Virus record (IMG/VR): IMGVR_UViG_3300035208_002098 | Coordinates: 96,001 to 160,000 of that record | Source: a virus | Taxonomy: Duplodnaviria; Caudoviricetes | Strand: one strand, 5' to 3' | DNA: 64,000 nucleotides | Part shown: piece after piece, positions 5-54,678 of the stretch | How positions within the stretch are numbered: the first letter of the stretch is position 1 | Layout: each line of letters begins with the position of its first letter | Position numbers and translations under genes: made by a program | The notes under the pieces: model-generated | What the model was told of the DNA's origin: nothing | Database searches by the model: none | Seen by the model: the letters and a program-made list of their open reading frames with translations, nothing else

Positions 5-76
5 AGTCGATAATCAGAATCGAACTGACATCCTCAGTTTGGTAAACTGACGCACTAACCGTTGTGCTATATCGAC
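5..76 (-). tRNA. tRNA-Gly(ACC)
   Basis: Cloverleaf: GTCGATA/TATCGAC acceptor, TCAGT-TTACCAA-ACTGA anticodon arm, U73. Confidence 0.85.
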
Positions 77-78
77 AT

Positions 79-264
79 TTATTTTAAACCATCTTTTATT
101 AAAAATTTTAATTTTAATTTAGCTTTATCGTATTTAGCTTTAGTCTTTTCAAACTCTTCAGATGATACATTATCTTTAAAGTTTTTACTATCTAAACGTT
201 TCTTTAGAAATTCAACATATTTCTCTTCTTGACCTATTAAATCAATTTTTTTATTTTTACCCAT
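79..264 (-). CDS. small basic hypothetical protein
   Basis: 61 aa ORF between tRNAs. Confidence 0.6.
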   Translation of the reverse strand: MGKNKKIDLIGQEEKYVEFLKKRLDSKNFKDNVSSEEFEKTKAKYDKAKLKLKFLIKDGLK

Positions 265-281
265 AATTAAAAATTTTATTG

Positions 282-366
282 AGCCTTCTGTCAGATTCGA
301 ACTGACGTGTCATTTGCATGAACCGGGTTACAAATCCGGTATAATCGACCACTATATGAAGAAGGC
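282..366 (-). tRNA. tRNA-Thr(TGT), long variable arm
   Basis: GCCTTCT/AGAAGGC acceptor, loop TTTGTAA, V-arm TCAT-GCAA-ATGA. Confidence 0.85.
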
Positions 367-367
367 A

Positions 368-432
368 TGGTCGGAGGTAGCTTTTCCCATTCGTTCCGCT
401 TCAAAAGCTTACGGTTAACAATGGTACCCCCG
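368..432 (-). ncRNA. CCA-ended tRNA-like RNA with predicted pseudoknot
   Basis: CGGGGGTA/TACCTCCG stem followed by ACCA; inner hairpin CCATTGTT..CCG/CGGAAC.AATGG; loop GCTTTT pairs with downstream AAAAGC. Confidence 0.5.
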
Positions 433-434
433 TT

Positions 435-511
435 TGGAGCCACAAGAGGGACTCGAACCCCCAACACCCTGATTACAAGTCAGGTACTCTACCAATTAAA
501 GCTATTGTGGC
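435..511 (-). tRNA. tRNA-Thr(TGT)
   Basis: Canonical cloverleaf, loop CTTGTAA, encoded CCA. Confidence 0.93.
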
Positions 512-671
512 AATTATTTTACATCTATAAATTCAATAGATGTTATTTCAGAATTGTTTTGAATAGATTCAAAACTCTCATGTAATGTTTTATTTTTACA
601 CGATTCTAATATTTCACTTAACCAATGAAATGCTGATTTGTCTACTATTATTTTCATATTATGTTTTTTAG

Positions 672-743
672 TGCAGTAATTCGGACTTGAACCGAAAACC
701 CTCTCATTGGAAGTGAGACGCTCTTCATTGGAGCTATTACTGC
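672..743 (-). tRNA. tRNA-Gly(TCC)
   Basis: TCTCA-CTTCCAA-TGAGA anticodon arm. Confidence 0.9.
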
Positions 744-799
744 GTTATTTATTCTAAATCCTATGACATATATTCAATATCATGTTATTATTAATAATT

Positions 800-1063
800 A
801 AATAGATGACCGTAGCCAAGGTTCTGTTTTAATCTAACATTTATCTATATATCATATGATATATCCGGTTTTTCATTCCGGTGCCACTACCTGTCTATCA
901 TCGCAATCTGAGGACCCTTGCTAAGACTAATTTGTGTTGCATCCCATGTTGCAGTGGTATAACGTATAAATTAATATACTTCCACTTCTCAGAGAGATGC
1001 CTTGAACTTCCTCTTCACCACATTTAGTATTATGTGATAAAGCGTTAGAATGCCTGTCTATTT
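800..1063 (-). ncRNA. rnpB: RNase P RNA (compact, ~260 nt)
   Basis: GAGGAAGTTCAAGGC near the 5' end and AACAGAACCTTGGCTA near the 3' end form P4 with compensatory changes; AGATAAATG motif; terminal P1 AAATAGA/TCTATTT. Confidence 0.88.
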
Positions 1064-1064
1064 A

Positions 1065-1552
1065 TTATTTATTATTTTTTAATTGTTCTTTAATTTTATT
1101 ATCCCATAAATTAGTATCACGTAATTTAGTTAATCGTTTACAAAATTCTGATTCAGTTAATACTGTTTCACTTTGTTTATTTTTACCTATTGAATGTGTG
1201 AATACAGCATCATTAGTTGATAACAAATCTTTCTTAAAATTTTCATTAGTAAATAAAGCTTCGTATGCTCTATTTAATAATTCTTGGTATTCTTTAGATT
1301 TTCTCTGGAATGCTTCACCTTTCCACCATAATGTTTGTCCTGTTTTCCAAGCTTTATTACGACCACTACCTCGTTTCTTAGCACCAAACCCAACCAATTT
1401 ACAAACCTCAGCTTGAATAACTCATTCTCGAATTTAAAGGATTGTAATAACCCTTCCATTGATGCACATTCAACACCATCAAATATAAATTGTCTAGCCG
1501 TAAAATTACTTAGTCTACCAGCAACACCTTTATTATTTCCACCTATATCCAT
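1065..1552 (-). pseudogene. NADAR-family (T4 gp30.3-like) gene split by a 1-nt frameshift near 1415-1420
   Basis: ORF 1274-1552 (LSNF...SMEGLLQSFKF) continues in the other frame as IQAEVCKLVGFGAKKRG...TLWWKG...HSIG. Confidence 0.7.
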
Positions 1553-1618
1553 ATCATTATATTTTAATCAAAGTTACTACTTTTTATCTATTAAAACAAG
1601 TAATTAATACTATTTTTG

Positions 1619-1750
1619 TGACCCACGTTTGGAATCGAACCTAACACTTTTAATAAACTCATAAATGATATTTATTAAATTACCGAAGTCTTTTATTTGC
1701 TAGTAATACTCTTCCGAGCCCGTAACGATACCAACAGCAAGACGCAGACC
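1619..1750 (-). ncRNA. tRNA-like RNA with long insert
   Basis: T-loop GGTTCGATTCC, G-U-rich acceptor GGTCTGC/GTGGGTC, no canonical anticodon arm. Confidence 0.4.
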
Positions 1751-1760
1751 AATTTATTTG

Positions 1761-1857
1761 TGGGTCACAGGGGTATCGAACCCCACGTCATCTTATTCAC
1801 ATAAGATTTACCATGTATGTTATACTTTAACTCAACGTCAATCTCAATACGCAGCCC
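1761..1857 (-). ncRNA. tRNA-like RNA
   Basis: T-arm GGGG-TTCGATA-CCCC, acceptor GGGCTGC/GTGACCC, non-canonical core. Confidence 0.4.
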
Positions 1858-1863
1858 ATATTG

Positions 1864-1945
1864 TCCATCCGGTTGGATTCGAACCAACGCAACCCATATT
1901 AAAAGTATGGTGCCTCTCGCTTACGCTCCACTCGGCCACGGATGG
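1864..1945 (-). tRNA. tRNA-Lys(TTT), enlarged D-loop
   Basis: CCATA-CTTTTAA-TATGG; D-loop carries extra GCGTAAGC. Confidence 0.8.
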
Positions 1946-1954
1946 AAATTTTTG

Positions 1955-2039
1955 TGTATCCGGTGGGGCTCGAACCCACGTTGAACATACTGTTCCTACA
2001 TTAAAAGTGTAGAGCCTAAACCAACTCGGCCACAGATAC
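1955..2039 (-). tRNA. tRNA-Lys(TTT), long variable arm
   Basis: CTACA-CTTTTAA-TGTAG; V-arm GAACA-GTA-TGTTC. Confidence 0.85.
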
Positions 2040-2041
2040 AT

Positions 2042-2485
2042 TTATATTATGTCTTTATACCAATTAAATTGTTTAGCAGTTCTTCTCCTATGACAATTGG
2101 CACATCTAACATCACATTTTTTAATTTCTTCTAATATCACACCCCAAGAATACCCAGCATTAACCATATTACCAACACCATCTATTTTATCAACATTATC
2201 TTTATGGTCAAATTCTAATACAATAGGGTCTTTTTCACCACAATCAATACAATATGATTGTGATAGAACATCGAAATATTTTCTTTGGTTTTCTTTTCTA
2301 ATTCGTTTATTTCGTTCACCAATAATTATTTTATGTTTTTCTCTATTATCATTATAATATTCTTTAGATTTAAGATTACTACATTCACGACAAATATTAC
2401 TATGTCCATCTTTACGAGTTTTATTTTTATTAAAATCAGTTAATATCTTGATTTCTTTACATTTAGTACATATTTTAGTTTCCAT
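2042..2485 (-). CDS. HNH homing endonuclease with Zn fingers
   Basis: CxxC pairs, LEFDH...CANCHRRR. Confidence 0.85.
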   Translation of the reverse strand: METKICTKCKEIKILTDFNKNKTRKDGHSNICRECSNLKSKEYYNDNREKHKIIIGERNKRIRKENQRKYFDVLSQSYCIDCGEKDPIVLEFDHKDNVDKIDGVGNMVNAGYSWGVILEEIKKCDVRCANCHRRRTAKQFNWYKDII

Positions 2486-2544
2486 ATTTTTTCATTTAAT
2501 ATAATAAACTTTTAAACAAAAGTAAATGTTAAAAGCTATTGTTG

Positions 2545-2617
2545 TCACCCCAAAGAGACTTGAACTCTTGACTCCGATATTAAAAGTATCGTACTCTACC
2601 AACTGAGTTATGAGGTG
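2545..2617 (-). tRNA. tRNA-Lys(TTT)
   Basis: Canonical cloverleaf, CGATA-CTTTTAA-TATCG. Confidence 0.92.
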
Positions 2618-2705
2618 AAAAAGAAAGATGAATTTAAAGGAGGGATTAAGTTAGAAAAAATCCATCTCTCAAAGGATAACATTATCAGCACAATAATGTC
2701 AAGTG

Positions 2706-2791
2706 TATCGTATGTGGGATTCGAACCCACGAATCGATTACTCGAAGCCAGCTTGAAAAGCTGGTGACCTAGGCCGCTAGTCTAATACGAC
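2706..2791 (-). tRNA. tRNA-Glu(TTC), long variable arm
   Basis: CCAGC-TTTTCAA-GCTGG; V-arm TCGA-GTAA-TCGA. Confidence 0.85.
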
Positions 2792-2800
2792 ATAATATTG

Positions 2801-2872
2801 TAGCCCGTAGGGGAATCGAACCCCTGATTCTAGGTTGAAAACCTAACGACTTAACCGTTTGTCCAACGGGCC
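2801..2872 (-). tRNA. tRNA-Glu(TTC)
   Basis: Canonical cloverleaf. Confidence 0.92.
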
Positions 2873-2896
2873 ATTTAATAAAATTTATTTGATTTG

Positions 2897-2970
2897 TCAC
2901 ACATACCGGATTCGAACCGGTGATTTTTTGGTTGAAAACCAAACGTCCTAGGCCTCTAGACGAATGTGCG
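2897..2970 (-). tRNA. tRNA-Glu(TTC)
   Basis: Canonical cloverleaf. Confidence 0.92.
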
Positions 2971-3027
2971 AAATTGCGAGATAAACTCGCATTATTAAAG
3001 GGCAACCGGGTAGGTCGACATGTATAA

Positions 3028-3378
3028 TTACCCTTTAAAATAAGATGAATTAGCAAATTTAGCTTCTCTTGCAAAATCAGTATCATCGTGAACGTATTGA
3101 TTGAATTCTCTAGATTCTAATTGAACAATTGTTTCAACTTCCATAGTAAACATTAGAATTAATTTATCGTATTCTTCTGTTTTATCTACTGGTTGTATTA
3201 AATTTAAACGAATGTTTGTATCACCGTTATTAGCTTTTTTTAATAAGAATTTTAATTGTTTTAAAGCCTCTTCTTTATAATCGATTAATGCTTGTTGATA
3301 ATCAATTATATGTTGTTGTTTATTAGCTTTAATTTTTTCAATTAAGTCACTTTTGTTTACATTGATAATTCTACTCAT
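3028..3378 (-). CDS. hypothetical protein
   Basis: 116 aa ORF with plausible composition. Confidence 0.75.
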   Translation of the reverse strand: MSRIINVNKSDLIEKIKANKQQHIIDYQQALIDYKEEALKQLKFLLKKANNGDTNIRLNLIQPVDKTEEYDKLILMFTMEVETIVQLESREFNQYVHDDTDFAREAKFANSSYFKG

Positions 3379-3445
3379 AATTTTTATTTTTAATTTATGT
3401 TATTTTAAGAATAACAAAAATATATAATAAATTAAAAGATATCAA

Positions 3446-3844
3446 CTAAAAATTCACTTTTCTTTTATCAGTAACTAAAATATCATCATTTCTATCTAAT
3501 GTAATATATTCTAAATTTACTAATTCAAATTCTTTAAGATGTTCTATAACTTCATTAGCTGTAAATTCACTACAAGAATATATATCAAACTGAAATTTTT
3601 GTGGTGTTTCTGAGTCCCACACATGCATACTGGCATGTGATGTAGCTAAAGTAACAGTACCGGTTACACCTTCATTACCTAAATCATCAACATATACTGA
3701 TGTTGGTCCGGCCACAACTTTCATTCGTACTTTTTCAACTAATATACTTAACCATAAATTTAATTCTTTAACTGTTTTAGGTGCTTTTTTACATTCACCC
3801 TTACAAATAAAGTGTAGGTGATTTGGCTTGAAAATTTCATTCAT
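3446..3844 (-). CDS. S-adenosylmethionine decarboxylase proenzyme-like
   Basis: GVTGTVTLATSHASMHVW...DIYSC matches the SpeD/SpeH pyruvoyl cleavage motif. Confidence 0.8.
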   Translation of the reverse strand: MNEIFKPNHLHFICKGECKKAPKTVKELNLWLSILVEKVRMKVVAGPTSVYVDDLGNEGVTGTVTLATSHASMHVWDSETPQKFQFDIYSCSEFTANEVIEHLKEFELVNLEYITLDRNDDILVTDKRKVNF

Positions 3845-3906
3845 TTATTAAAATTATTACGATAATATTATTTAATAAATAAATATCAAGAAAACCATTA
3901 AAATTG

Positions 3907-3979
3907 TTGCGATAAAAGGATTCGAACCTTTGTTTGCGGTCTCCACGACCACCGTCCTGAACCACTAGACGATACCGCT
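3907..3979 (-). tRNA. atypical tRNA, anticodon TGG (Pro?)
   Basis: Cloverleaf with loop CGTGGAG (G33) and a 1-72 mismatch. Confidence 0.55.
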
Positions 3980-4076
3980 GAAACTCATTAAAATTTAGAC
4001 TGCATTCTTAACTTTTTTGAGATTGCTTAATATAATTCCGATATTTGCAGTTACGGTTTCATATCAAGTAATTTTG

Positions 4077-4157
4077 TGGGGCTGATGGGATTCGAACCCA
4101 CTAAGCGTAGCAGCGGTTTTACAGACCGCCTCAACTCTCCAACGTTGACGCATCCCC
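4077..4157 (-). tRNA. tRNA-Tyr(GTA)
   Basis: GCGGT-CTGTAAA-ACCGC. Confidence 0.88.
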
Positions 4158-4165
4158 AAATAGAG

Positions 4166-4247
4166 TGGGAGTAGTTGGACTCGAACCAACGAAGACCGAA
4201 GTCGAGGGATTTACAGTCCCTTGCAATTGCCGCTATGCGATACTCCC
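4166..4247 (-). tRNA. tRNA-Tyr(GTA)
   Basis: Canonical class II cloverleaf. Confidence 0.93.
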
Positions 4248-4253
4248 AAGTTA

Positions 4254-4392
4254 GAACAGGTTTGTCTTTTTGCGTTCTATTGCTCTACCAACTGAGCTAT
4301 ACCCCCAATATTAATATTTGTGGGGGCAATGGGATTCGAACCACATGACCCATAGATTTACCTAGCTTTTTATTTGCTGAATCAAACCTTTA
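4254..4392 (-). ncRNA. YrlA-like Y RNA (circularly permuted tRNA module)
   Basis: Order is T-arm, acceptor stem closed by a loop (TGCCCCCA..TGGGGGTA), then D-arm; ends pair AGGTTTG/CAAACCT; TTCAGCAA motif. Confidence 0.75.
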
Positions 4393-4397
4393 TCTAG

Positions 4398-4470
4398 TCG
4401 AGTATGCTGGCATCGAACCGACCAAGCGATGCCTCCAATGCACCGCTGCCTAAACCTTGGTCAATACTCG
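4398..4470 (-). tRNA. divergent tRNA-Pro(TGG)
   Basis: CGAGTAT/ATACTCG acceptor, GGTGC-ATTGGAG-GCATC. Confidence 0.7.
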
Positions 4471-4476
4471 TTAAAG

Positions 4477-4547
4477 TTGTCCTACTAAGATTCGAACTTA
4501 GAACAACGGTATCAAAAACCGTTGTGTTACCATTACACCATAGGACA
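4477..4547 (-). tRNA. tRNA-Gln(TTG)
   Basis: Canonical, ACGGT-TTTTGAT-ACCGT. Confidence 0.92.
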
Positions 4548-4562
4548 ATGTTTATTTTTTTG

Positions 4563-4647
4563 CAGACCCCGTAAGACTCGAACTTACAAACCAATTAAAG
4601 GCATTAGATTCAAAATCTAACGTGTTTACCAATTCCACCAGAGGTCT
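4563..4647 (-). tRNA. tRNA with Gln anticodon (TTG) on a Leu-like long-V-arm body
   Basis: D-arm GGTGGAATTGGTAAACAC, TTAGA-TTTTGAA-TCTAA, G73. Confidence 0.8.
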
Positions 4648-4694
4648 AAAATATTTTTTTTATTTTATAATTATATTAAATACCGTATTACTAA

Positions 4695-4895
4695 ATGATA
4701 TTTATTAGTATAATACTTAAAACAATGAAATTAAATTATTCTGATAAAGTTAAATTCCTTAGTGGTGAATACCAAGATAAAATTGGTACTTATGTTGACG
4801 AAAATTCTAGTGCTTTTTTAATTAAACTAGATACCCAATCTATTATTATAATAGTAAGTAAATATAATACTGAAACAATTATAGAAAAAATATAG
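4695..4895 (+). CDS. small hypothetical protein
   Basis: Plus-strand ORF after an ATATTTAT motif. Confidence 0.5.
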   Translation: MIFISIILKTMKLNYSDKVKFLSGEYQDKIGTYVDENSSAFLIKLDTQSIIIIVSKYNTETIIEKI

Positions 4896-4956
4896 AAACA
4901 GGATTGACGTTGTTTCAATTAAAATTTGATTTTGTTTATTGCTGAACCAATCCTTT
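4896..4956 (-). ncRNA. short Y-like RNA with Lys anticodon-loop mimic
   Basis: AGGATTG-GTTCAGCAA ... TCAA-ATTTTAA-TTGA ... CAATCCT-GT. Confidence 0.6.
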
Positions 4957-4965
4957 ATTCTATTG

Positions 4966-5050
4966 TCGAACTAGAGGGATTTGAACCCACAAACTAAGTT
5001 AATTACTCTTAGTACCACCTATGTACAGTATCACCGTAACAGTTAGCTCG
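4966..5050 (-). tRNA. atypical tRNA-Pro(AGG), long variable arm
   Basis: CGAGCTA/TAGTTCG, GTAC-ATAGGTG-GTAC, long variable region. Confidence 0.6.
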
Positions 5051-5056
5051 TTATTG

Positions 5057-5131
5057 TCGGGATGGTGAGATTCGAACTCACGAACCGAAGCTTCCAAGGC
5101 CCCGTTGTATAACCATCTGCATAACATCCCG
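5057..5131 (-). tRNA. tRNA-Pro(TGG)
   Basis: CGGGATG/CATCCCG, GGGGC-CTTGGAA-GCTTC. Confidence 0.88.
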
Positions 5132-5136
5132 TTTAG

Positions 5137-5207
5137 TCGAGTGATTTGGCATTCCACCAAATATACTAGGTCCCGATGACCACTGCACTATACTTGTGCT
5201 ACACTCG
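5137..5207 (-). tRNA. degenerate tRNA (Pro-like acceptor, anticodon uncertain)
   Basis: CGAGTG/CACTCG acceptor; non-canonical T and anticodon loops. Confidence 0.45.
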
Positions 5208-5236: not shown

Positions 5237-5965
5237 TTGGTTTTTGTAAAATATCTAGATATTTATAGATATATACAAATTATTATGATACCATTATACA
5301 CTGAAGAAGAATTTAAAACCGCCAAATCATTTGATGAATTATCATGCCAATGTTTAATTTGTGGTAAAACATTTAAACAAAAAAAATACATTGTAAAAAT
5401 GGCTTTAAGTCCAAAATATGAAAGGACTGGTGATTTTTGTTCACTTACATGTCAACAAAAATCTAATATAAAAAAAGATACATTTAAAATATTTAATTGT
5501 TGTAATTGCAATAAAGAAATTATAAAACAATCGTCAGCCAGTAAACGTCATAAAAATACTTTCTGTTCACATTCATGCTCTACAAAATATTTAAATTCAC
5601 ATAAAACTACCGGTACAAGACGTTCTAAATTAGAAATGTATGTTGAAGAACAACTTACATTACTTTACCCTAATCTAGATATTAAATATAATGATAAATC
5701 AGTTATTAATTCTGAATTAGATATCCACATACCATCACTTAACTTAGCATTCGAACTTAATGGTATATTCCATTATGAACCAATATTCGGTGTTAATAAA
5801 TTAGACCAAATACAAACTAATGATATATCTAAATCAAAAGCCTGTATAGATGCAAAGATTGATTTATGTATAATAGATACATCTGGTCATAAATATGTTA
5901 AACCTAAAACTAGTGAAAAATATCTTAATATTATAATTAAAATTATTAACACTAGATTAGCCTAA
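5237..5965 (+). CDS. Zn-finger + PD-(D/E)xK/Vsr-like putative homing endonuclease
   Basis: Repeated CxxC..FCS..C motifs; ELDIHIPSLNLAFELNGIFHY; paralog of 62643-63329. Confidence 0.8.
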   Translation: MVFVKYLDIYRYIQIIMIPLYTEEEFKTAKSFDELSCQCLICGKTFKQKKYIVKMALSPKYERTGDFCSLTCQQKSNIKKDTFKIFNCCNCNKEIIKQSSASKRHKNTFCSHSCSTKYLNSHKTTGTRRSKLEMYVEEQLTLLYPNLDIKYNDKSVINSELDIHIPSLNLAFELNGIFHYEPIFGVNKLDQIQTNDISKSKACIDAKIDLCIIDTSGHKYVKPKTSEKYLNIIIKIINTRLA

Positions 5966-6042: not shown

Positions 6043-6085
6043 AAAAACAAAAAACCCAATCTACATTTCTGAGGATTGGGTCTTT
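6043..6085 (-). terminator. attenuator terminator, tRNA operon 1
   Basis: AGACCCAATC/GATTGGGTTT hairpin followed by a T tract. Confidence 0.85.
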
Positions 6086-6114: not shown

Positions 6115-6201
6115 TTACATAAAATTATATAACATACCCAATCCGTTTTGGCCCTCGCCTTTCGGTTGTTTCGTTCCTTGATATGTTGTATACGTTTTCA
6201 T
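6115..6201 (-). CDS. leader peptide 1: MKTYTTYQGTKQPKGEGQNGLGMLYNFM
   Basis: 28 aa ORF between promoter repeat and terminator; codons 2-18 are only K,T,Y,Q,G,P,E. Confidence 0.88.
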   Translation of the reverse strand: MKTYTTYQGTKQPKGEGQNGLGMLYNFM

Positions 6202-6230: not shown

Positions 6231-6318
6231 ATTGTTTGTTTATAAATATACTGCAAAGATATGAAAAGTTTCAATACGAGTCAAGTATTTTCGCATTTAT
6301 TTTCAAATTATTTTTTAA
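6231..6318 (-). promoter_or_regulatory. tRNA-operon promoter repeat, copy 1
   Basis: ACTTGACTCGTATTGAAACTTTTCATATCTTTGCAGTATATTTATAA; TAnnTTTG element; near-identical at 21797-21880 and 54586-54678. Confidence 0.85.
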
Positions 6319-17276: not shown

Positions 17277-17351
17277 TGGAAGTCATGGGTATCGAACCCA
17301 CCTCACTCTGATTGCAAATCAAAATCGCCTTGCCTTGGTTCATGCACCCCC
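17277..17351 (-). tRNA. tRNA-Cys(GCA), divergent
   Basis: Loop TTGCAA, T-arm GTGGG-TTCGATA-CCCAT. Confidence 0.75.
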
Positions 17352-17354
17352 AGT

Positions 17355-17449
17355 TACAGGTTAGTTATTTTTTGACGGATTTGAACCGTCTAGCATTTGA
17401 GTTTGAATCAATTGTTTTAACCATTTAGTTTTTGCTGAAACTAACCTTT
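17355..17449 (-). ncRNA. Y-like RNA carrying a Leu(CAA) anticodon arm and T-arm
   Basis: AGGTTAGT-TTCAGCAA..TTGA-TTCAAAC-TCAA..GACGG-TTCAAAT-CCGTC..ACTAACCT-GT. Confidence 0.7.
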
Positions 17450-17520
17450 AGTTTAATTATTATTTTGTATACATATATGTTTACTTATTTACATTTTTGT
17501 AAACATATGTGATGACTTTG

Positions 17521-17594
17521 TGGAGCCAATGGGACTTGAACCCACAACCTCTTCCGTGCAAGGGAAGTATTCTAGCCAATTGAAATATGACCCC
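17521..17594 (-). tRNA. tRNA-Ala(TGC)
   Basis: G3:U70, CTTCC-CTTGCAC-GGAAG. Confidence 0.93.
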
Positions 17595-17599
17595 ATTAT

Positions 17600-18253: not shown

Positions 18254-18319
18254 AATATTCGTACTTTATTATATAAATATCATGTCATATTCAAAAAGTA
18301 CAAAAACATGACATTTGTG

Positions 18320-18391: not shown

Positions 18392-18396
18392 AAGTG

Positions 18397-18474: not shown

Positions 18475-18475
18475 A

Positions 18476-19075: not shown

Positions 19076-19099
19076 ATATATTTATTTTTTAATTATTTG

Positions 19100-44351: not shown

Positions 44352-44962
44352 TGGGTATGACACCAGAAGAATTAAAACGTAAGCGAAAAGAACGTTATGA
44401 CGCTAACGCTGAAGAATTAAGACGTAAAAGACGTGAATATTACTATAATAACAAAGAGAAATCAGCTGAATATAGTAAACAGTACCACGAAGTTAATCGT
44501 GATAAAAATCTAGAAGTTAAGAAAAAATATCGTGAAGCTAATAAAGAAAAAATAGCTGAAAGTAAAAAGATATGGGACACTAATAATCGTGATAGGATTA
44601 ATGAATACGTTACAAATAGGAAAAAATACGATAAATTATTTAAACTATCTGAAAACTATAGATGTGCTATAAATAAAGCTATTAATAGATTTGGTTACAC
44701 CAAAAAATCTAAAACCACTGAAATACTTGGTTGTACATTTGAGGAATTTAAAGCTTATATCGAATCTAAATTTGAATCATGGATGAATTGGTCCAACCAC
44801 GGATTGTATAATGGTGATTTTAATTATGGTTGGGATATTGACCATATAATACCACTTGCAACTGCAAAGACCGAAGATGATATAATAATGTTGAATCACT
44901 ATACCAATCTTCAGCCTTTATGTAGTCATATTAATAGAGATATTAAGAAAGATAATCTATAA
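44351..44962 (+). CDS. HNH homing endonuclease
   Basis: WDIDHIIPL...NHYTNLQPL. Confidence 0.85.
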   Translation: MGMTPEELKRKRKERYDANAEELRRKRREYYYNNKEKSAEYSKQYHEVNRDKNLEVKKKYREANKEKIAESKKIWDTNNRDRINEYVTNRKKYDKLFKLSENYRCAINKAINRFGYTKKSKTTEILGCTFEEFKAYIESKFESWMNWSNHGLYNGDFNYGWDIDHIIPLATAKTEDDIIMLNHYTNLQPLCSHINRDIKKDNL

Positions 44963-46088
44963 CTCGTTTATATAATTGTTTGTTATTGTATGTAACCATA
45001 TACTCTTTAATAGAATTATGTTTACCGTCATATAACCCAAAAAATAAACCGGTAAAATCACTAAACCCATTTTGTTTTGATATAGATAATACTATATTAG
45101 CTATTACTTTACGTTCAACAATAGTAGTAGATTGTGGTATATAATTAACTATATCTACCCAAGTATTTTCTAAATCATTAATGAAAACATCGTATTTACC
45201 TTTCAGTTCTAGCATTTCATCTTTTCTCTCAGGTACATAAACAAGGTATTCCTCAATTTCATTGGTTTTAATAACTTGCATTATTTCATATTGAGAAGAT
45301 TTAGATTTTAAATGATGTAAAGCGACATATGATGGAGTCTTCATTTTAACTCTATTAAAATTATCATCAACAATAACATAACCTTCAAAAAATGGGTCTG
45401 GCATATTCTCAAATGTTCTTCTAATAGCACCAATATCCATTGCATTTATATCAAATTGTTTAACCACTGGTACACGTAACGCCCAAATAATTTCATGTAA
45501 GTCATCGTATGACAACTCTTCTAAAGTTTCAAGGTTCCTAACACCTAATAATGTAAGTGAAGAAGTTTCATGTGGTTTAACAACTATATTATATGGGGTA
45601 GTTAACTCAAACGCATATGTAAAACCTTTTGTTAATACAGCTTCATGAAAATTAGGTACCATATTTTTAAGTGTAGTCCAAAATAATTTAGCGAATGTTG
45701 TACCAAATTTATTGTTTACTTCGCCATCAGCTTCTGGTGTACCTGTTGTACCAACTAACCATTGATTTTTATGCCAATCCCAATATAATTGAATTAAACT
45801 ACCATCAACTTTTTCTAAAATCTTCGCTGTATTCCAGTCTATTTTAGCTGCATGACCTTCTTCATGATTGAAGAATTTACGGAATGCCAATGACATAACT
45901 TTCCAAGTATCTCTTTCAAGGATAAGACCTCTACAGTCTTGAGTTTCTTCAAAAGCCATTGGTGATTCTAGTTGATTATATTTCAACAGAATCTTATTTT
46001 CACATACATTAGTTTTAAGCTTAAAAGTTTCAATTGCTTTCGCTAAACCATGTAATTTTATATATTTTACTATTGCTAATTCTTTCAT
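44943..46088 (-). CDS. Rnl1-like RNA ligase
   Basis: CRGLIL, FRKFFN, EKVDGSL, FEL, EGYVI, KMK. Confidence 0.88.
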   Translation of the reverse strand: MKELAIVKYIKLHGLAKAIETFKLKTNVCENKILLKYNQLESPMAFEETQDCRGLILERDTWKVMSLAFRKFFNHEEGHAAKIDWNTAKILEKVDGSLIQLYWDWHKNQWLVGTTGTPEADGEVNNKFGTTFAKLFWTTLKNMVPNFHEAVLTKGFTYAFELTTPYNIVVKPHETSSLTLLGVRNLETLEELSYDDLHEIIWALRVPVVKQFDINAMDIGAIRRTFENMPDPFFEGYVIVDDNFNRVKMKTPSYVALHHLKSKSSQYEIMQVIKTNEIEEYLVYVPERKDEMLELKGKYDVFINDLENTWVDIVNYIPQSTTIVERKVIANIVLSISKQNGFSDFTGLFFGLYDGKHNSIKEYMVTYNNKQLYKRVIDYLS

Positions 46089-49072: not shown

Positions 49073-49191
49073 ATTAAATATTTTTAATTATGAGACAAAG
49101 ATACAAATAAATTTTGATATATGCAACAATATTGGTAAATTAATTTGTGACCCATGAGGAATTCGAATCCCCAACCTCTTGGTTATTATTG

Positions 49192-49271
49192 AACGAGTGG
49201 AGGGATTCGAACCCACATTTACAACTCCGTTTACGTTTATATAGTTCGTAGCTATACTCGGTTACACTCGC
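49192..49271 (-). tRNA. tRNA-Arg(ACG), D-arm absent or relocated
   Basis: GCGAGTG/CACTCGT, 8-nt linker, TATAG-CTACGAA-CTATA. Confidence 0.75.
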
Positions 49272-49917
49272 TTATGATATTATATCTTTTAACCCATTTT
49301 CTGACCGTATTATCACTAACACCATATTTTCTACCTATTGCACAATACGACATATTTTTAATCATATCATTAAGTTCTAATTCTGTTGGCCATTCAACTT
49401 TCCTAAGGTCTAATCTAATTTTATTTACTGTTCTACCATCTATTTTTTTTACTTTATTTTCCGGTAAACCTTTACTTCCAAGACAATGTGTTGGTAAAGT
49501 TGAATTACAATTTGGGCATAAAAACCTTAAATTTTCTAATCTGTTATCATTATTAACACCATTAATGTGGTCTAATATTAAAGTTATTTTTTCACCTAAC
49601 CATTCACCTTTATTACCACATTTAACACATTTATACTCTAATAAATTATCATTAATAATTCTTTTTTTTATACAAGCCCGACTTATAATCGAATCCTTAG
49701 TAAAAAGCACATCATTTTCATACTTTGTTCGAACTCCAATATTTTCACGTTTTATTGTAAAATGACTAACATCTATCTCATATCGAACCAATAATTTCTT
49801 TAATATTTTATACGAACCACCAGACTCATTCCTATTTAGTTTTACCAACACTTCTCTATAACTATTACAACCAGCAACTATTATAACCAGCTCACTCTTT
49901 TCATATCTTTTATACAT
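49252..49917 (-). CDS. HNH homing endonuclease with C-terminal HTH
   Basis: LILDHINGVNNDNRLENLRFLCPNCN. Confidence 0.9.
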   Translation of the reverse strand: MYKRYEKSELVIIVAGCNSYREVLVKLNRNESGGSYKILKKLLVRYEIDVSHFTIKRENIGVRTKYENDVLFTKDSIISRACIKKRIINDNLLEYKCVKCGNKGEWLGEKITLILDHINGVNNDNRLENLRFLCPNCNSTLPTHCLGSKGLPENKVKKIDGRTVNKIRLDLRKVEWPTELELNDMIKNMSYCAIGRKYGVSDNTVRKWVKRYNIISECNRV

Positions 49918-50059
49918 ATATCGAACCTTTATATATAAATATATCGAATAATATGAAAGTTCGAATTATTTTAAATATTATTAGGTATTCAAAATCATAA
50001 AAATATAATATTTAGTGCTCTAATCCGATTGAGCTAATGAGCCAAATATATAACGTTTG

Positions 50060-50143
50060 CGGAAGAAGTAGAGTCCGAGTCCAATGCCTTACGGCACACA
50101 TTGTTTAGCAAACAAGTCCACCAGCCCCAGTGGTTCATCTTCC
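50060..50143 (-). tRNA. tRNA-Ser(GCT)
   Basis: Loop TTGCTAA, long V-arm, G73. Confidence 0.78.
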
Positions 50144-50165
50144 ATTTAATAAGTATTTGTTTATG

Positions 50166-50237
50166 TGACCTCACTGGAATTCGAATCCAGATTTAAAGTT
50201 TAGGAAACTCCCGTTCTATCCATTAAACTATGTGGCC
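50166..50237 (-). tRNA. tRNA-Arg(CCT)
   Basis: Loop TTCCTAA. Confidence 0.85.
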
Positions 50238-50238
50238 A

Positions 50239-50481
50239 TTAAGGATTAATTTGTTGTTGAATATCTTTAATATGTGTTACAATATTTTGAACATTAACAT
50301 GTTTAACTGCTTTAGTTAAAAAATCTATTGTGGTCTCATCATTTTGATACATATCAATAGCACCTAGAATATTATTTAATTCGTTACGTAATCGTTCAAT
50401 TGGTGTTTCATTTTCTTCATATTCACCATTTGAAAATTCCATTAAATTTTCTCTAATTTTAATTTTAGTATCTCGTTTCAT
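50239..50481 (-). CDS. hypothetical protein (KIRE N-terminal motif)
   Basis: 80 aa ORF. Confidence 0.6.
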   Translation of the reverse strand: MKRDTKIKIRENLMEFSNGEYEENETPIERLRNELNNILGAIDMYQNDETTIDFLTKAVKHVNVQNIVTHIKDIQQQINP

Positions 50482-50511
50482 TGTATTAATATTATATACA
50501 ATAAATATCTA

Positions 50512-51114
50512 TCAATTCTTATAGTTCTTAACATACCTATCTTTTCTAGCAGAATTTTTATTCTTAGATTTATATGTTCCTAATTGCGAATCACAATTAG
50601 GGCATACACACCTTAAATTACTTCTAGTATTATTACTAGCATCACCATCAATATGGTCTAATATAAATACTATAGGTTTATTATTCCAAATATCTAACAT
50701 CCTACATATATCACATAAATTATTTTGTTCTTTTAAAATATGTGGTTTTATAGCTTTAGTATCATATAATATACCACGATATTGCTCTTGATTAATTAAA
50801 TAATTTTCATACGTTGAATTCATCTTATATTCACTAGAACATCTTATACTACAAAATTTTTGTTTATCATAACTAGTTGTAATACATTTACCACAATTTA
50901 AACAAATAATTTTTTTTATTGTACCAGTATTATATGGTTTAAAACCTTCAGGAAAAGTCTTCCTTGTAATCAATTGTATACCTAAACGTTTACATACTTT
51001 TTTTATGTAAGTATCACTAACACCATATATCTCACCTATTTTAGTATAGGGTAATTTTTCTTCAAAAATTAATTTTTCTAAATCACCCTTTTTGTATTTA
51101 TCTTCAAAATTCAT
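50512..51114 (-). CDS. HNH homing endonuclease
   Basis: FILDHIDGDASNNTRSNLRCVCPNC. Confidence 0.9.
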   Translation of the reverse strand: MNFEDKYKKGDLEKLIFEEKLPYTKIGEIYGVSDTYIKKVCKRLGIQLITRKTFPEGFKPYNTGTIKKIICLNCGKCITTSYDKQKFCSIRCSSEYKMNSTYENYLINQEQYRGILYDTKAIKPHILKEQNNLCDICRMLDIWNNKPIVFILDHIDGDASNNTRSNLRCVCPNCDSQLGTYKSKNKNSARKDRYVKNYKN

Positions 51115-51196
51115 AATATGTTTTATTATAAATATCTAGATAAATAATAAACGAACCAAAAGTAAATATTTTTTTAAGTTTACTTTTGGTTCGTTG

Positions 51197-51282
51197 TGAA
51201 CGAGGGGGGAGTCGAACCCACAAGTACTTTACAGTAAACGATTTAGAAGACCGTGACGCTTCCAATTACGTGCTACTCGTCC
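51197..51282 (-). tRNA. tRNA-Arg(TCT), long variable arm
   Basis: ACGGT-CTTCTAA-ATCGT. Confidence 0.8.
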
Positions 51283-51532
51283 ATTACACCATGAAGGCAT
51301 TTTTTAATGTTTATATAATTTGAATATAGTTTCTTCTATTTCATCACGAATATCTTCATCCGTTAATTTAATATCCTTCATCTCATCTTCTATCATAATA
51401 TCCTCATTAATAATAGTCATTTCTATTTTATCATCTATGTTTTTCATATGTTTATCCTTTTACTATAATTATCACAAATATACTAAATAGTTAAGATAAA
51501 TTCAATATTTTCTTAACCAATTTATTAAAAAG

Positions 51533-51612
51533 AGGTCTAGGTGGGGGTCGAACCCACATTTACAATATCCATTACCCGTAACAGTTTCGAAGACTGAGGG
51601 GATTACAAGACC
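51533..51612 (-). tRNA. tRNA-Arg(TCG), D-arm absent or relocated
   Basis: GGTCTTG/CTAGACC, 8-nt linker, CAGT-CTTCGAA-ACTG. Confidence 0.72.
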
Positions 51613-51613
51613 A

Positions 51614-52039
51614 TTACCCTATTGGTGCAACATATCTAGGGTTTTCGTTTCTTAATATAGCTATTAACTTTCTAATTTCTTTAGGTTGTTCACTATACCA
51701 ATTATTGGCTTCAATAACTAAATCATTATATTCTTCCTCACTATAACAGAATATTTTACCATCAATTTCGATATCAGTACTAGCGAGTGATAATTCCGGA
51801 TAGTCAATAATAGGTTCTAAAACAATACCAGCAACGTTAACCCAAAAATTATAATCCTCATCAGATAATTCAATTCTACCGTTACTAAATAAACTATCAA
51901 TCATAATTTTAGCATCAAATATAGTACAATTAAAATATTTTTTAGCTTCACTTATAGCATTATGTCTACCAAATTTAAATATACCGTTATACGATATTAC
52001 ATAATATTTTTTCATAATTAAATTGTTATTAGAATACAA
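51614..52039 (-). CDS. hypothetical protein
   Basis: 141 aa ORF; true start probably MKKYY. Confidence 0.65.
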   Translation of the reverse strand: MYSNNNLIMKKYYVISYNGIFKFGRHNAISEAKKYFNCTIFDAKIMIDSLFSNGRIELSDEDYNFWVNVAGIVLEPIIDYPELSLASTDIEIDGKIFCYSEEEYNDLVIEANNWYSEQPKEIRKLIAILRNENPRYVAPIG

Positions 52040-52083
52040 AGATAATACAATTAATTTAATTTACCAAATATTTTATTTTTTAG

Positions 52084-52168
52084 TACACCCGGAGGGATTC
52101 GAACCCCCAAGAACATAAAGTCACCTCTTTAGAAGAGAGGGACGCTTCCAATTACGTGCTACGGATGC
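52084..52168 (-). tRNA. tRNA-Arg(TCT), long variable arm
   Basis: CCTCT-CTTCTAA-AGAGG. Confidence 0.82.
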
Positions 52169-52178
52169 ATTTTTAAGA

Positions 52179-52264
52179 GGGAAGGGTGGGAGTCGAACCC
52201 ACGATGGAACTTACGTTCACCAGATTAACAGTCTGGACTTTTCGACCACTAAAGCAACCGACCC
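52179..52264 (-). tRNA. tRNA-Asn(GTT), long variable arm
   Basis: CCAGA-CTGTTAA-TCTGG, V-arm GAAC-GTAA-GTTC. Confidence 0.78.
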
Positions 52265-52351
52265 ATGGCGTGATTATTTGAACTAGCGTTCTGGAACTAC
52301 TAAACCTCGTCATACTCTAATCACAATAACCAATAAGTATGCAGAACCTCG

Positions 52352-52432
52352 TATTGATGGTGGGATTCGAACCCACGTTTTCAATTTACCACTACGAATA
52401 TCCAAGATATAAGCTTGGCTCGGTACATCAAT
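52352..52432 (-). tRNA. tRNA-Ile(TAT), D-arm absent or relocated
   Basis: ATTGATG/CATCAAT, 7-nt linker, CCAAG-CTTATAT-CTTGG. Confidence 0.75.
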
Positions 52433-52442
52433 ATATTTAAAG

Positions 52443-52515
52443 TGGGCCTACACAGACTTGAACTGTGAATCTTCTCCTTATGAGGGAGGTGCCTTCACCA
52501 TTTGGCTATAGGCCC
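52443..52515 (-). tRNA. tRNA(CAT), probably Ile2
   Basis: GGGCCTA acceptor typical of Ile2, loop CTCATAA, sits among Ile tRNAs. Confidence 0.8.
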
Positions 52516-52521
52516 AAACTT

Positions 52522-52818
52522 TTATACAATTTTAATAAATTCACCATTATCAATTGCTTTACCAATCCACCTATTTAAGAAAGATGCTTTAATTTGATTT
52601 TCAAAAGATGTTGTACCTAAATCAGCTGATAATTTAATGAATGGTAATTCAACTTCAGGTTTACCAATTACTTTAACAGTCTCAATAGTTTCGATTGGAA
52701 ATTGAAAAATACCTTCTTCTATTTCTACTGTATAATATAAATTACCAGAACAATAATGTGAAAATTTAGCACTTACTTTAGATTTTAATAATTGTTTTTG
52801 AACATTTAATTTTTCCAT
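52522..52818 (-). CDS. hypothetical protein
   Basis: Start taken at MEKLNV because the longer ORF overlaps a tRNA. Confidence 0.65.
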   Translation of the reverse strand: MEKLNVQKQLLKSKVSAKFSHYCSGNLYYTVEIEEGIFQFPIETIETVKVIGKPEVELPFIKLSADLGTTSFENQIKASFLNRWIGKAIDNGEFIKIV

Positions 52819-52844
52819 TTTAATAATTGTTTTTAATTTATTTG

Positions 52845-52918
52845 TCCGCTTGATAGGACTTGAACCTATAACCTCTTCCGTATCAGGGAAGTAATCTAAC
52901 CAATTGATATACAAGCGG
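52845..52918 (-). tRNA. tRNA-Ile(GAT)
   Basis: CTTCC-CTGATAC-GGAAG. Confidence 0.88.
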
Positions 52919-52934
52919 ATTTATTATTTCTTAG

Positions 52935-53010
52935 GTACCTAAATTGGACTCGAACCAAAAACTAACTAGTATAAGGCTCCACAAGCCTCAGTGCCATCCC
53001 GGCTAGGTAC
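52935..53010 (-). tRNA. atypical tRNA-His(GTG)
   Basis: 8-bp acceptor GTACCTAG/TTAGGTAC, GAGGC-TTGTGGA-GCCTT. Confidence 0.65.
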
Positions 53011-53015
53011 ATTTG

Positions 53016-53100
53016 TCGTCTGGGTGAGATTTGAACTCACGTTGAGAATTAATCTCACAGCTTATCAGGCTGTTTTCTGCCACCACTCGAATACCAGACA
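53016..53100 (-). tRNA. tRNA-Ile(GAT), long variable arm
   Basis: ACAGC-CTGATAA-GCTGT, V-arm GAGA..TCTC. Confidence 0.82.
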
Positions 53101-53146
53101 ATGTTAGACTCCGATTTTTTTCTAGGCAGAACGTTGTCTAAGTAAA

Positions 53147-53803
53147 CTACACAAGATATCGACCTTTTATCCAACCTTCATTTTCCCAGTTAGATAAGTC
53201 TTCGTTTTTAATCTTCTTATTAATATTATCTTTAGTAATCCAACAGGTACCATATTGTGAATTAGTTTCACCAACACCAGTACCACTTTTAATTTCAGAC
53301 ATTTTTAGTTTAGTTTCATTTGAATGGTTTTTATCTGTCCAATTATAAAAATATTTTCGTTCTAAAACTTCATCATCATATAATTTCTTAATAGTCTTAA
53401 CAAATTTTCCACTTCTTTTTTTAACCCAATCTGGGTTTGTTTCTCTAAGTTCTTTTTGTCTCTCATTAGATTTAAACGCATTTAATCTTTGTTCTTCTGA
53501 AGTAAAACCTCTTCCACCTTCACCACCAATCATTAGATTCATACATAAATCTTCCTTTAATAATTGTTTATTTACAAGCTCTTTTTCACGCTCTTTTAAT
53601 GATTCTCTATCTGGTAAAAATTCTAATATCTCTTTAATGAAATTTTCTTTACCATAATAATTAATTGAAAACCATAATCGTTTACCTGAACCTAGATAAC
53701 CATCTTCTAGGTTATTAGTACTATGCATTCCTATATAGTACTTATTGTTTATTACATTTGTTGTTTTATAAATGTAATGATATTGTTTTTGTCTTCTACC
53801 CAT
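53147..53803 (-). CDS. GIY-YIG (Seg-like) homing endonuclease
   Basis: Paralog of 17600 and 20004. Confidence 0.88.
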   Translation of the reverse strand: MGRRQKQYHYIYKTTNVINNKYYIGMHSTNNLEDGYLGSGKRLWFSINYYGKENFIKEILEFLPDRESLKEREKELVNKQLLKEDLCMNLMIGGEGGRGFTSEEQRLNAFKSNERQKELRETNPDWVKKRSGKFVKTIKKLYDDEVLERKYFYNWTDKNHSNETKLKMSEIKSGTGVGETNSQYGTCWITKDNINKKIKNEDLSNWENEGWIKGRYLV

Positions 53804-53854
53804 ATTTATATCGTTTATTATATAAATATAAGGTAAAGTACAAAAATGTCAAGT

Positions 53855-53928
53855 GGGTGTAAGCACGGTATCGAACCGAGTTCTCGTGATTCACAGTCAC
53901 GCACATCACCTTAATGCTTCAAACACCA
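53855..53928 (-). tRNA. tRNA-His(GTG)
   Basis: CGTGA-CTGTGAA-TCACG, C73. Confidence 0.85.
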
Positions 53929-53936
53929 TATATTTG

Positions 53937-54018
53937 AGGAAGATAGAAGAATCGAACTCCATACCTACAGGTATCCCTAGGGTTCAAGCCTAGTTTGCCA
54001 CCGATGGCGGTACCTTCC
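53937..54018 (-). tRNA. tRNA-Ser(TGA)
   Basis: CTAGG-CTTGAAC-CCTAG, V-arm. Confidence 0.8.
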
Positions 54019-54027
54019 ATAAATTTG

Positions 54028-54112
54028 CGGAGGTAGTAGGGCTCGAACCCACACGGGTGTTACCCCGACCACGGTTTTCAAGACCGGTACAATACCATTC
54101 TGTCACACCTCC
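54028..54112 (-). tRNA. tRNA-Ser(TGA)
   Basis: Loop CTTGAAA, V-arm, G73. Confidence 0.9.
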
Positions 54113-54116
54113 ATTG

Positions 54117-54187
54117 CACAGGTAGAAAGGGTCGAACTCTCACGGAAGGTTTTGGAGACCTTAATGCTACCATTACATTATACCTGT
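54117..54187 (-). tRNA. tRNA-Trp(CCA)
   Basis: AAGGT-CTCCAAA-ACCTT. Confidence 0.88.
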
Positions 54188-54195
54188 ATATTTTG

Positions 54196-54284
54196 CACAT
54201 CGGTAGGGATTCGAACCCTCATCTAATCTTACGACCCTTAAGGACTGGGTTGGAGCCAGCTAGTCACGCCTAATGAGCCGATGT
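54196..54284 (-). tRNA. atypical tRNA-Trp(CCA), long variable region
   Basis: GCTGG-CTCCAAC-CCAGT. Confidence 0.65.
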
Positions 54285-54315
54285 GTATTTACCAATATGT
54301 CAAAGAACTTTGTTG

Positions 54316-54387
54316 CGGACAAGGAGAATTTCGAAATCCCGACCCTCTGGTTAACGGCCAGACGCTCTGCCTCTGAGCTACGTGTCC
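54316..54387 (-). tRNA. tRNA-Asn(GTT)
   Basis: TCTGG-CCGTTAA-CCAGA, G73. Confidence 0.85.
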
Positions 54388-54401
54388 AATTATTTTAAAA
54401 T

Positions 54402-54437
54402 AAAAAAGCCTGAAACGTTTTTACGAATCAGGCTTTT
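54402..54437 (-). terminator. attenuator terminator, tRNA operon 3
   Basis: AAAAGCCTGA/TCAGGCTTTT hairpin plus T tract. Confidence 0.85.
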
Positions 54438-54469
54438 AAGCTTTTAATATTTTTAATATCTTATCTTGT

Positions 54470-54562
54470 TTACAAGAAATTAAACATACCTGATTCGGAA
54501 TGGATAGAACGTCTAATGTTCGACCAATTACTATGAATACTATGTATATTATTATTTCTCAT
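54470..54562 (-). CDS. leader peptide 3: MRNNNIHSIHSNWSNIRRSIHSESGMFNFL
   Basis: 30 aa ORF; codons 2-22 are only R,N,I,H,S,W. Confidence 0.9.
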   Translation of the reverse strand: MRNNNIHSIHSNWSNIRRSIHSESGMFNFL

Positions 54563-54585
54563 TTTTTCTATTTGTTTATTGTTTA

Positions 54586-54678
54586 ATTCTATTGTTTGTT
54601 TATAAATATACTGCAAAGATATGAAAAGTTTCAATACAAGTCAAGTATTTTCGCAATTATTTTCAATTTATTTTTTAA
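54586..54678 (-). promoter_or_regulatory. tRNA-operon promoter repeat, copy 3
   Basis: Near-identical to 6231-6318. Confidence 0.85.

What the first reader, a model, noticed from the sequence alone, without database searches (positions are those of the whole stretch)
5..54678. Three leader-peptide attenuators that each sense the amino acids of their own phage tRNA operon
Seen: three tRNA operons (5-5207, 17277-21547, 49148-54387) share one architecture: an ~80-bp promoter repeat, a 28-35 aa ORF, a terminator hairpin with T tract, and a boxA-like site near the operon start. The sensor runs are KTYTTYQGTKQPKGEGQ (operon: Lys, Thr, Tyr, Gln, Gly, Pro, Glu), LALLDCTAVLFDAFDAL (Leu, Ala, Asp, Cys, Val, Phe) and RNNNIHSIHSNWSNIRRSIHS (Arg, Asn, Ile, His, Ser, Trp). 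The sets do not overlap and cover 19 amino acids; Met-type tRNAs lie outside these operons. Each leader has a 9-11 nt stretch complementary to its own terminator's 5' strand, 15-19 nt before the stop, although the three sequences differ. Known: this is the trp/his/thr-type attenuation layout, normally upstream of biosynthetic genes. Inference: the phage monitors the translatable tRNA pool and transcribes a replacement tRNA set when ribosomes stall, for example after host anticodon-nuclease defence or starvation. I know of no described case for tRNA operons. Caveat: which stall positions free the antiterminator needs modelling, because the last sensor codons abut it.
Basis: partly seen in the sequence, partly recalled or inferred. 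Interest (0 to 1): 0.97.

Follow-up and report, generated by a model that had tools for sequence, protein, structure and literature searches.

The report
Leader-peptide attenuators gating phage tRNA operons
Each of three tRNA gene blocks in this large phage of Bacteroidota bacteria sits behind a tiny test gene written in the codons those tRNAs read and a switchable stop signal, so the phage probably makes a tRNA set only when ribosomes run short of it, a control I could not find described for tRNA genes.

Summary
Confirmed and extended. On the minus strand, three tRNA operons each follow a shared Bacteroidota-type promoter, a 28-35-codon ORF, an in-ORF antiterminator and an intrinsic terminator. 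Sensor codons match their own operon's amino acids (17/17, 15/19, 14/14; P 1e-5 to 1e-9).

In 33 leader-operon pairs from 17 phage records, the 20 amino acids are divided among operons in many ways and the leader follows: 77% of residues in set, against 29% shuffled (maximum 45%). Matching reaches isoacceptor level (24/30 Ile/Arg codons). Phages with one all-purpose operon carry leaders holding 19-20 amino acids. Antiterminator and terminator change together. Folding models free the antiterminator for stalls up to codons 16-23 and disfavour it when the ribosome is on it or at the stop.

Best reading: kinetic, ribosome-mediated attenuation that feeds back on tRNA supply. No expression data were obtained; the trigger (anticodon nucleases, demand, starvation) is inferred. 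No paper describing this was found. This scan reported the same design earlier on other DNA (Caulobacter and other phages); I saw it myself in cultured Caulobacter phage BL47.

The parts
6241..6295 (-). Promoter core of unit B: Bacteroidota -33/-7 (TAnnTTTG) elements followed by the phage's own AT-rich promoter-like motif
   Evidence: consensus from PMC6847099
6115..6201 (-). Leader ORF B, 28 codons, sensing Lys/Thr/Tyr/Gln/Gly/Pro/Glu
   Evidence: homologues L057, L039:7423, L175:6150
6136..6144 (-). Antiterminator strand B (codons 20-22)
6049..6082 (-). Intrinsic terminator B
5237..5965 (+). HNH homing endonuclease gene inserted between terminator B and the first tRNA, with a boxA-like copy on each side (5996, 5234)
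4..5207 (-). tRNA operon B (Pro, Gln, Tyr, Glu, Lys, Gly, Thr); continues beyond the window start
21806..21860 (-). Promoter core of unit C
21663..21770 (-). Leader ORF C, 35 codons, sensing Leu/Ala/Asp/Cys/Val/Phe
   Evidence: same partition with a diverged leader in L176:1026
21686..21697 (-). Antiterminator strand C (from codon 25)
21594..21627 (-). Intrinsic terminator C
17277..21547 (-). tRNA operon C (Cys, Val, Leu x4, Asp x3, Phe, Ala) with homing endonuclease genes; boxA-like site at 21357
54601..54655 (-). Promoter core of unit A
54470..54562 (-). Leader ORF A, 30 codons, sensing Arg/Asn/Ile/His/Ser/Trp
   Evidence: homologues L001, L031, L033
54488..54496 (-). Antiterminator strand A (codons 23-25)
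   Evidence: changes together with the terminator in L033
54402..54435 (-). Intrinsic terminator A
49148..54387 (-). tRNA operon A (Asn, Trp, Ser, His, Ile incl. Ile2-like CAU, Arg); boxA-like site at 54307; candidate internal promoters at 52067 and 51505
54701..56390 (-). Context: CCA-adding enzyme-like gene and Tpt1/KptA gene directly upstream of unit A
44943..46088 (-). Context: T4 Rnl1-type RNA ligase

Best explanation
Each unit is a ribosome-mediated transcription attenuator that feeds back on tRNA supply. Host RNA polymerase (probably also a phage-directed form, through the AT-rich motif) starts at the shared promoter, and a ribosome translates the leader. If the leader's codons are read at normal speed, the ribosome is on or just past the antiterminator when the terminator's 5' arm emerges; the terminator folds and transcription stops before the tRNA genes. 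If any tRNA of the set is scarce, the ribosome lags in the first 16-23 codons. The free antiterminator then pairs with the terminator's 5' arm before the 3' arm is made, and polymerase reads into the operon, helped by an rRNA-type boxA. The new tRNAs relieve the stall and close the loop. It is a kinetic timer summed over many codons with 1-5 copies per amino acid, not one long run. The likely trigger is loss of host tRNA in infection (anticodon nucleases, host decay or phage demand). SHOWN: layout, composition match, co-variation, complementarity. MODELLED: switch geometry. INFERRED: translation, regulation in vivo, trigger.
For: Window match 14/14, 15/19, 17/17. 33 pairs from 17 records: 77% of sensor residues in set against 29+/-4% (maximum 45% in 20,000 shuffles); 93% of operon amino acids present in the leader against 45%; the leader tail (last codons before, on and after the antiterminator) falls to 33%. 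Natural experiments: L051 splits Cys/Val/Leu from Phe/Glu/Asp/Ala with two matching leaders; the Lys/Thr/Tyr/Gln/Pro/Gly leader of L039 has no Glu in its sensor stretch. The 372-kb phage G004 has five units with other partitions. Isoacceptor match 24/30: AUA where the operon has Ile2 or a UAU anticodon, CGN or AGR following the Arg anticodon. Single-operon phages: 21 leaders at median 54% identity, 16 with all 20 amino acids and 5 with 19, against 1-3% chance for 20. Antiterminators prefer their own terminator (median rank 0.034; 19/20 within one family). The antiterminated state costs 4-7 kcal/mol more with the ribosome at the stop than mid-leader in the window, and more than 1 kcal/mol more in 39/40 leaders. 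A at -3 and -13 in all three starts (PMC6847099). The boxA motif maps to Bacteroidota rRNA spacers in 65/81 genome hits. Same layout in Caulobacter phage BL47.
Against: At equilibrium the terminator wins in A and C at every ribosome position, so the switch must be kinetic. In the window the antiterminator ends 16-21 nt before the stop, and a terminating ribosome blocks it fully only if it covers 20-24 nt upstream. No protector hairpin was seen: with no ribosome the antiterminator forms. Candidate internal promoters in A (52067, 51505) and B (3445) could bypass control of distal tRNAs. Leaders of related phages are not independent, so the shuffle statistics overstate significance.
Confidence: 0.88

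Rival explanations
1. Same switch, but its purpose is sensing amino-acid starvation (uncharged tRNA), as in trp or his, not the supply of tRNA molecules.
For: Starvation would stall the same codons; this is how classical attenuators work (own knowledge).
Against: The output is tRNA, not amino acid, so it cannot relieve starvation (inference). Leaders follow isoacceptors, 24/30. Tpt1, a CCA enzyme and an RNA ligase are neighbours.
Confidence: 0.15
2. A general translation-speed or ribosome-availability sensor; composition is incidental, or the peptide acts as an arrest peptide.
For: With no ribosome the antiterminator forms, so any block of translation would open the operon. All-20 leaders would respond to global slowing.
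Against: Peptide sequence is not conserved while composition follows each operon's partition; the three window leaders are unrelated in sequence.
Confidence: 0.06
3. Opposite polarity: stalling near the end of the sensor covers the antiterminator and shuts the operon.
For: The last 2-4 in-set codons put the ribosome on the antiterminator.
Against: Every amino acid of each window set occurs earlier, where a stall leaves the antiterminator free, and a scarce tRNA stalls at its first codon.
Confidence: 0.03
4. Chance ORFs in AT-rich spacers before ordinary terminators.
For: Short ORFs are common in spacers.
Against: P 1e-5 to 1e-9 per unit; dozens of homologues with intact frames, in-frame length changes, synonymous differences and compensatory pairs.
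Confidence: 0.01

Closest known systems
Multivalent leader-peptide attenuators of amino-acid operons (thrL Thr/Ile, ilvGMEDA leader Ile/Val/Leu; also trpL, hisL, pheL) (own knowledge; pheL in PMC3082878)
   Same: Promoter, short leader ORF with control codons, mutually exclusive antiterminator and intrinsic terminator; a stall gives read-through.
   Different: Controls tRNA genes of a phage; samples 6-7, up to 20, amino acids with few copies each; matches isoacceptors; the antiterminator lies inside the ORF before the stop; no protector hairpin seen; several units tile the code.
pheM attenuator of E. coli pheST (own knowledge)
   Same: Attenuation controlling a part of the translation apparatus by charged-tRNA supply.
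   Different: One amino acid; the target is a synthetase, not tRNA genes; bacterial.
T-box riboswitches (own knowledge)
   Same: tRNA-responsive terminator/antiterminator switch.
   Different: T-boxes bind uncharged tRNA directly with no translation; no Rfam T-box match here.
Anabaena trn operon under repressor TrcR (PMC8421152, PMC10272220)
   Same: A tRNA array, silent by default and induced by translational stress, with HNH and RNA-ligase neighbours.
   Different: Protein repressor at promoter repeats; not codon-specific; no attenuation mentioned.
Phage tRNAs countering tRNA-cleaving defence (T5 tRNAs against PARIS/AriB, PMC12409363; jumbo-phage RNA repair, PMC7824862)
   Same: Plausible purpose; same neighbouring repair genes.
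   Different: No on-demand control of the phage tRNAs was seen in the passages read.

Membership tests
Leader-peptide transcription attenuator | Short ORF with a usable start between promoter and first regulated gene | tested here: met
Leader-peptide transcription attenuator | Control codons tied to the operon's product | tested here: met
   the product is the tRNA set
Leader-peptide transcription attenuator | Intrinsic terminator before the first gene | tested here: met
Leader-peptide transcription attenuator | Antiterminator mutually exclusive with the terminator, conserved by compensatory change | tested here: met
Leader-peptide transcription attenuator | Stall on control codons frees the antiterminator; full translation blocks it | tested here: inconclusive
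   Model supports it for codons up to 16-23 and on the antiterminator; at the stop the block depends on footprint and kinetics
Classical trp/his type (narrow sense) | Protector (1:2) hairpin giving termination when the leader is untranslated | tested here: not met
   Antiterminator forms with P 0.99-1.0 without a ribosome; model only
Classical trp/his type (narrow sense) | Regulated genes encode amino-acid biosynthesis, transport or synthetases | tested here: not met
   Regulated genes are tRNAs
Leader-peptide transcription attenuator | Leader translated and read-through regulated in vivo | not testable with these tools
T-box riboswitch | Stem I with specifier loop and T-box bulge | tested here: not met
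   Rfam gathering scan gives only tRNAs
Arrest-peptide sensors (TnaC, ErmCL, SecM) | Conserved nascent-peptide motif | tested here: not met
   Sequences differ between units and lineages; composition follows the operon
rrn boxA antitermination site | Same motif as host rRNA operon boxA | tested here: met
   65 of 81 matches lie after tRNA-Ile/Ala in rRNA-spacer context, nearly all in Bacteroidota records; Nus binding not tested

The most novel reading that the evidence does not exclude
Large phages run a codon-resolved surveillance of the host tRNA pool. The genetic code is divided into feedback modules; each leader lists the isoacceptors of its operon, and cleavage of any one host tRNA by an immune nuclease opens only the module that replaces it. 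The design recurs in phages of at least two host phyla.
Probability: 0.55. Interest if true: 0.95.

Novelty: new variant of a known kind. Interest (0 to 1): 0.9.

Why it matters
Why phages carry tRNAs is a long-open question (codon bias, host tRNA decay, anticodon-nuclease defence). A switch that opens on shortage of exactly the encoded tRNAs makes it testable: the conditions that open each operon name the pressure. It extends attenuation to tRNA genes and to viruses; a 2021 paper calls mechanisms of differential tRNA gene regulation largely unknown (PMC8421152). The leaders are also ready-made reporters for tRNA-cleaving defence systems, and their codons help assign odd phage tRNAs such as Ile2.

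Tried and rejected
Exact full-promoter scan of IMG/VR: no hit. Antiterminator-terminator pattern scans: only L001 real, the rest chance. No close relative among GenBank phages. No TilS in the phage record, which is rated 70% complete; Ile2 would need the host enzyme. No leader-terminator-tRNA unit in 80 bacterial boxA loci, mostly rRNA spacers, so a weak test of host origin. Ten literature searches found no description of attenuation of tRNA operons; subscription papers are not covered. A review that I recall mentioning a T-box before a Bacillus tRNA operon was not held, so that precedent is unchecked. Left out of the pair test: single-operon leaders, operons cut to fewer than 4 tRNAs, duplicates, L113, L116, and L036/L042, whose hairpin contains a promoter-like element and whose array was poorly called.
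Full report
Setting. The window lies in a single-contig 248-kb virus record of 27.7% G+C, rated 70% complete. Its promoters fit the Bacteroidota -33/-7 consensus (PMC6847099), and its boxA-like motif occurs almost only in Bacteroidota records, so the host is inferred to be a Bacteroidota bacterium. ARAGORN finds 43 tRNA genes in the window, all on the minus strand. Rfam finds only tRNAs, with no T-box or other riboswitch. tRNA repair and maturation genes lie nearby: Tpt1, a CCA-adding enzyme and a T4-type RNA ligase.

Observation. The three ORFs are at 6201-6115, 21770-21663 and 54562-54470. Each starts about 50 nt after a promoter whose 55-nt core occurs only three times in the genome. The core is followed by an AT-rich motif that also precedes many structural and endonuclease genes; I read this as the phage's own promoter (inference). 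Each start has A at -3 and -13, as favoured in Flavobacterium. A terminator follows 34-37 nt after each stop, and a 9-12-nt stretch inside the ORF pairs with its 5' arm. Taking the sensor as codon 4 up to four codons before the antiterminator, a boundary set without looking at the tRNAs, 14/14, 15/19 and 17/17 residues belong to the own operon's set, and every amino acid of each set is present in the leader. The sensors use 31 different codons in 50 positions, with 12 G/C-ending codons against 6.7 +/- 2.2 expected, as if sampling isoacceptors. Two ARAGORN labels needed correction: Trp at 1863 is Lys-like, and the CAU gene at 52442 is Ile2-like.

Comparative test. Neighbouring proteins gave homologues of unit A (L001, L031, L033) and unit B (L057). 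In L033 the antiterminator and the terminator arm have both changed and still pair. A promoter scan of metagenomes gave the key natural experiment: L051 holds one operon of Cys/Val/Leu and another of Phe/Glu/Asp/Ala, each with its own matching leader. A boxA scan of IMG/VR, with leaders detected by position only, gave 68 leader-terminator-tRNA units including the window's. Regions of near-complete genomes showed further partitions. G004 (372 kb): Gln/Phe/Arg/Val; Asn/His/Thr/Lys; Leu/Cys; Asp/Gly/Ala/Tyr/Met/Pro; Ser/Arg/Trp. G003: Gln/Pro/His; Asp/Val/Glu/Leu/Ala/Trp; Lys/Tyr. G011 has essentially the window's three-way partition with diverged leaders. Over 33 split-operon pairs from 17 records, 77% of sensor residues are in set, against 29% for shuffled pairings (maximum 45% in 20,000), and 93% of operon amino acids appear in the leader, against 45%. 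The tail beyond the sensor is at background, 33%. Related leaders are not independent and I chose the split pairs by eye, so these figures show direction and size, not an exact probability. Where an operon carries only one class of Ile or Arg tRNA, 24 of 30 sensor codons are of that class; some misses coincide with low-scoring or cut-off tRNA genes, such as the window's own gene at 49191-49271. Phages with one all-purpose operon carry 44-51-codon leaders; 16 of 21 hold all 20 amino acids and the rest 19, at median 54% identity, against 1-3% chance for all 20. Leader diversity rises with operon diversity (Spearman 0.63, n = 45). Cultured Caulobacter phage BL47 shows two composition-matched ORFs before tRNA blocks, one with a clear terminator and a complementary stretch in the ORF. 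I looked there because earlier notes of this scan reported the design in Caulobacter phages.

Mechanism. In nascent RNA ending at the terminator loop, the antiterminator forms with P near 1 while the ribosome's A site is at or before codon 16 (B), 23 (C) or 18 (A). It cannot form once the ribosome is 2-3 codons from it or on it. On full-length RNA the terminator wins in A and C, so the choice is kinetic. With the ribosome at the stop codon the result depends on the footprint: a full block needs 20-24 nt of upstream cover. Even with 18 nt, the antiterminated state loses 4-7 kcal/mol relative to a mid-leader stall, and the same sign holds in 39 of 40 leaders. Across lineages the antiterminator ends a median 8 nt before the stop and 41 nt before the terminator arm, which suits a race between ribosome and polymerase. 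No protector hairpin appears, so failure to translate at all should also open the operon (inference). Met tRNAs, which a leader could not easily sense at its start, sit here behind a promoter without an attenuator. Because the output is tRNA and the match follows isoacceptors, feedback on tRNA supply fits better than amino-acid starvation. Loss of host tRNA to immune nucleases is a documented pressure that phage tRNAs relieve (PMC12409363, PMC7824862), but nothing here singles it out over host decay or high demand.

Comparison and novelty. It works like a multivalent thr or ilv attenuator and meets the structural criteria of leader-peptide attenuation. It fails two marks of the narrow trp/his type (protector hairpin, biosynthetic target) and is not a T-box. 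The nearest regulated tRNA array in the literature is the Anabaena trn operon, which uses a protein repressor. Ten searches found no report of attenuated tRNA operons; subscription journals are not covered. This scan has noted the same design before on other phage DNA and in overlapping windows of this genome; those notes are not counted as evidence.

Verdict. A real, widespread and apparently unpublished variant of ribosome-mediated attenuation, strongly supported by comparative sequence evidence and untested by experiment. Interest 0.9.

Noticed in passing
window 12841-14990 (-): Fourth array with host-type promoter (15018) and boxA-like site (14965) but no leader or terminator; mostly aberrant tRNA-like genes, one canonical Phe, and a weak YrlA/Y-RNA-like match at 14003-14117 (E 0.0011, below threshold). 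An ORF at genome 168471-169904 looked TROVE-like by eye (not tested). Possible decoy or repair RNAs.
   Followed up: partly
window 63388-65209 (-), partly beyond the window: Three Met/CAU tRNAs behind a promoter with a boxA-like site and no attenuator; a tmRNA call lies further upstream (genome 162504-162870).
   Followed up: partly
window 5237-5965 (+): HNH gene inserted at the boxA site of operon B, with boxA on both sides; a similar-looking insert follows boxA in L039.
   Followed up: partly
window 281-5131, 52083-54284: Many tRNAs come as twins: one canonical and one odd copy with a long variable arm or altered D arm and the same anticodon (Trp, Ser, Ile, Gln, Glu, Thr, Lys). Possibly nuclease-resistant or decoy forms.
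   Followed up: no
genome 93270-93343 (about 2.7 kb before the window): tRNA with a CUA (amber) anticodon although long ORFs use TAG as a stop 20 times; similar genes in G004 and G011.
   Followed up: partly
window 52067, 51505, 3445 (-): Candidate host-type promoters inside operons A and B, before embedded protein genes; they may uncouple distal tRNAs from the attenuator.
   Followed up: no
L173:10714 (G004): A leader that starts with GTG and contains an internal Met codon, before an operon that includes Met tRNAs.
   Followed up: partly
L036 and L042: Another lineage with a 33-codon ORF and a strong terminator whose loop holds a promoter-like element, before poorly recognised tRNA-like genes.
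   Followed up: no
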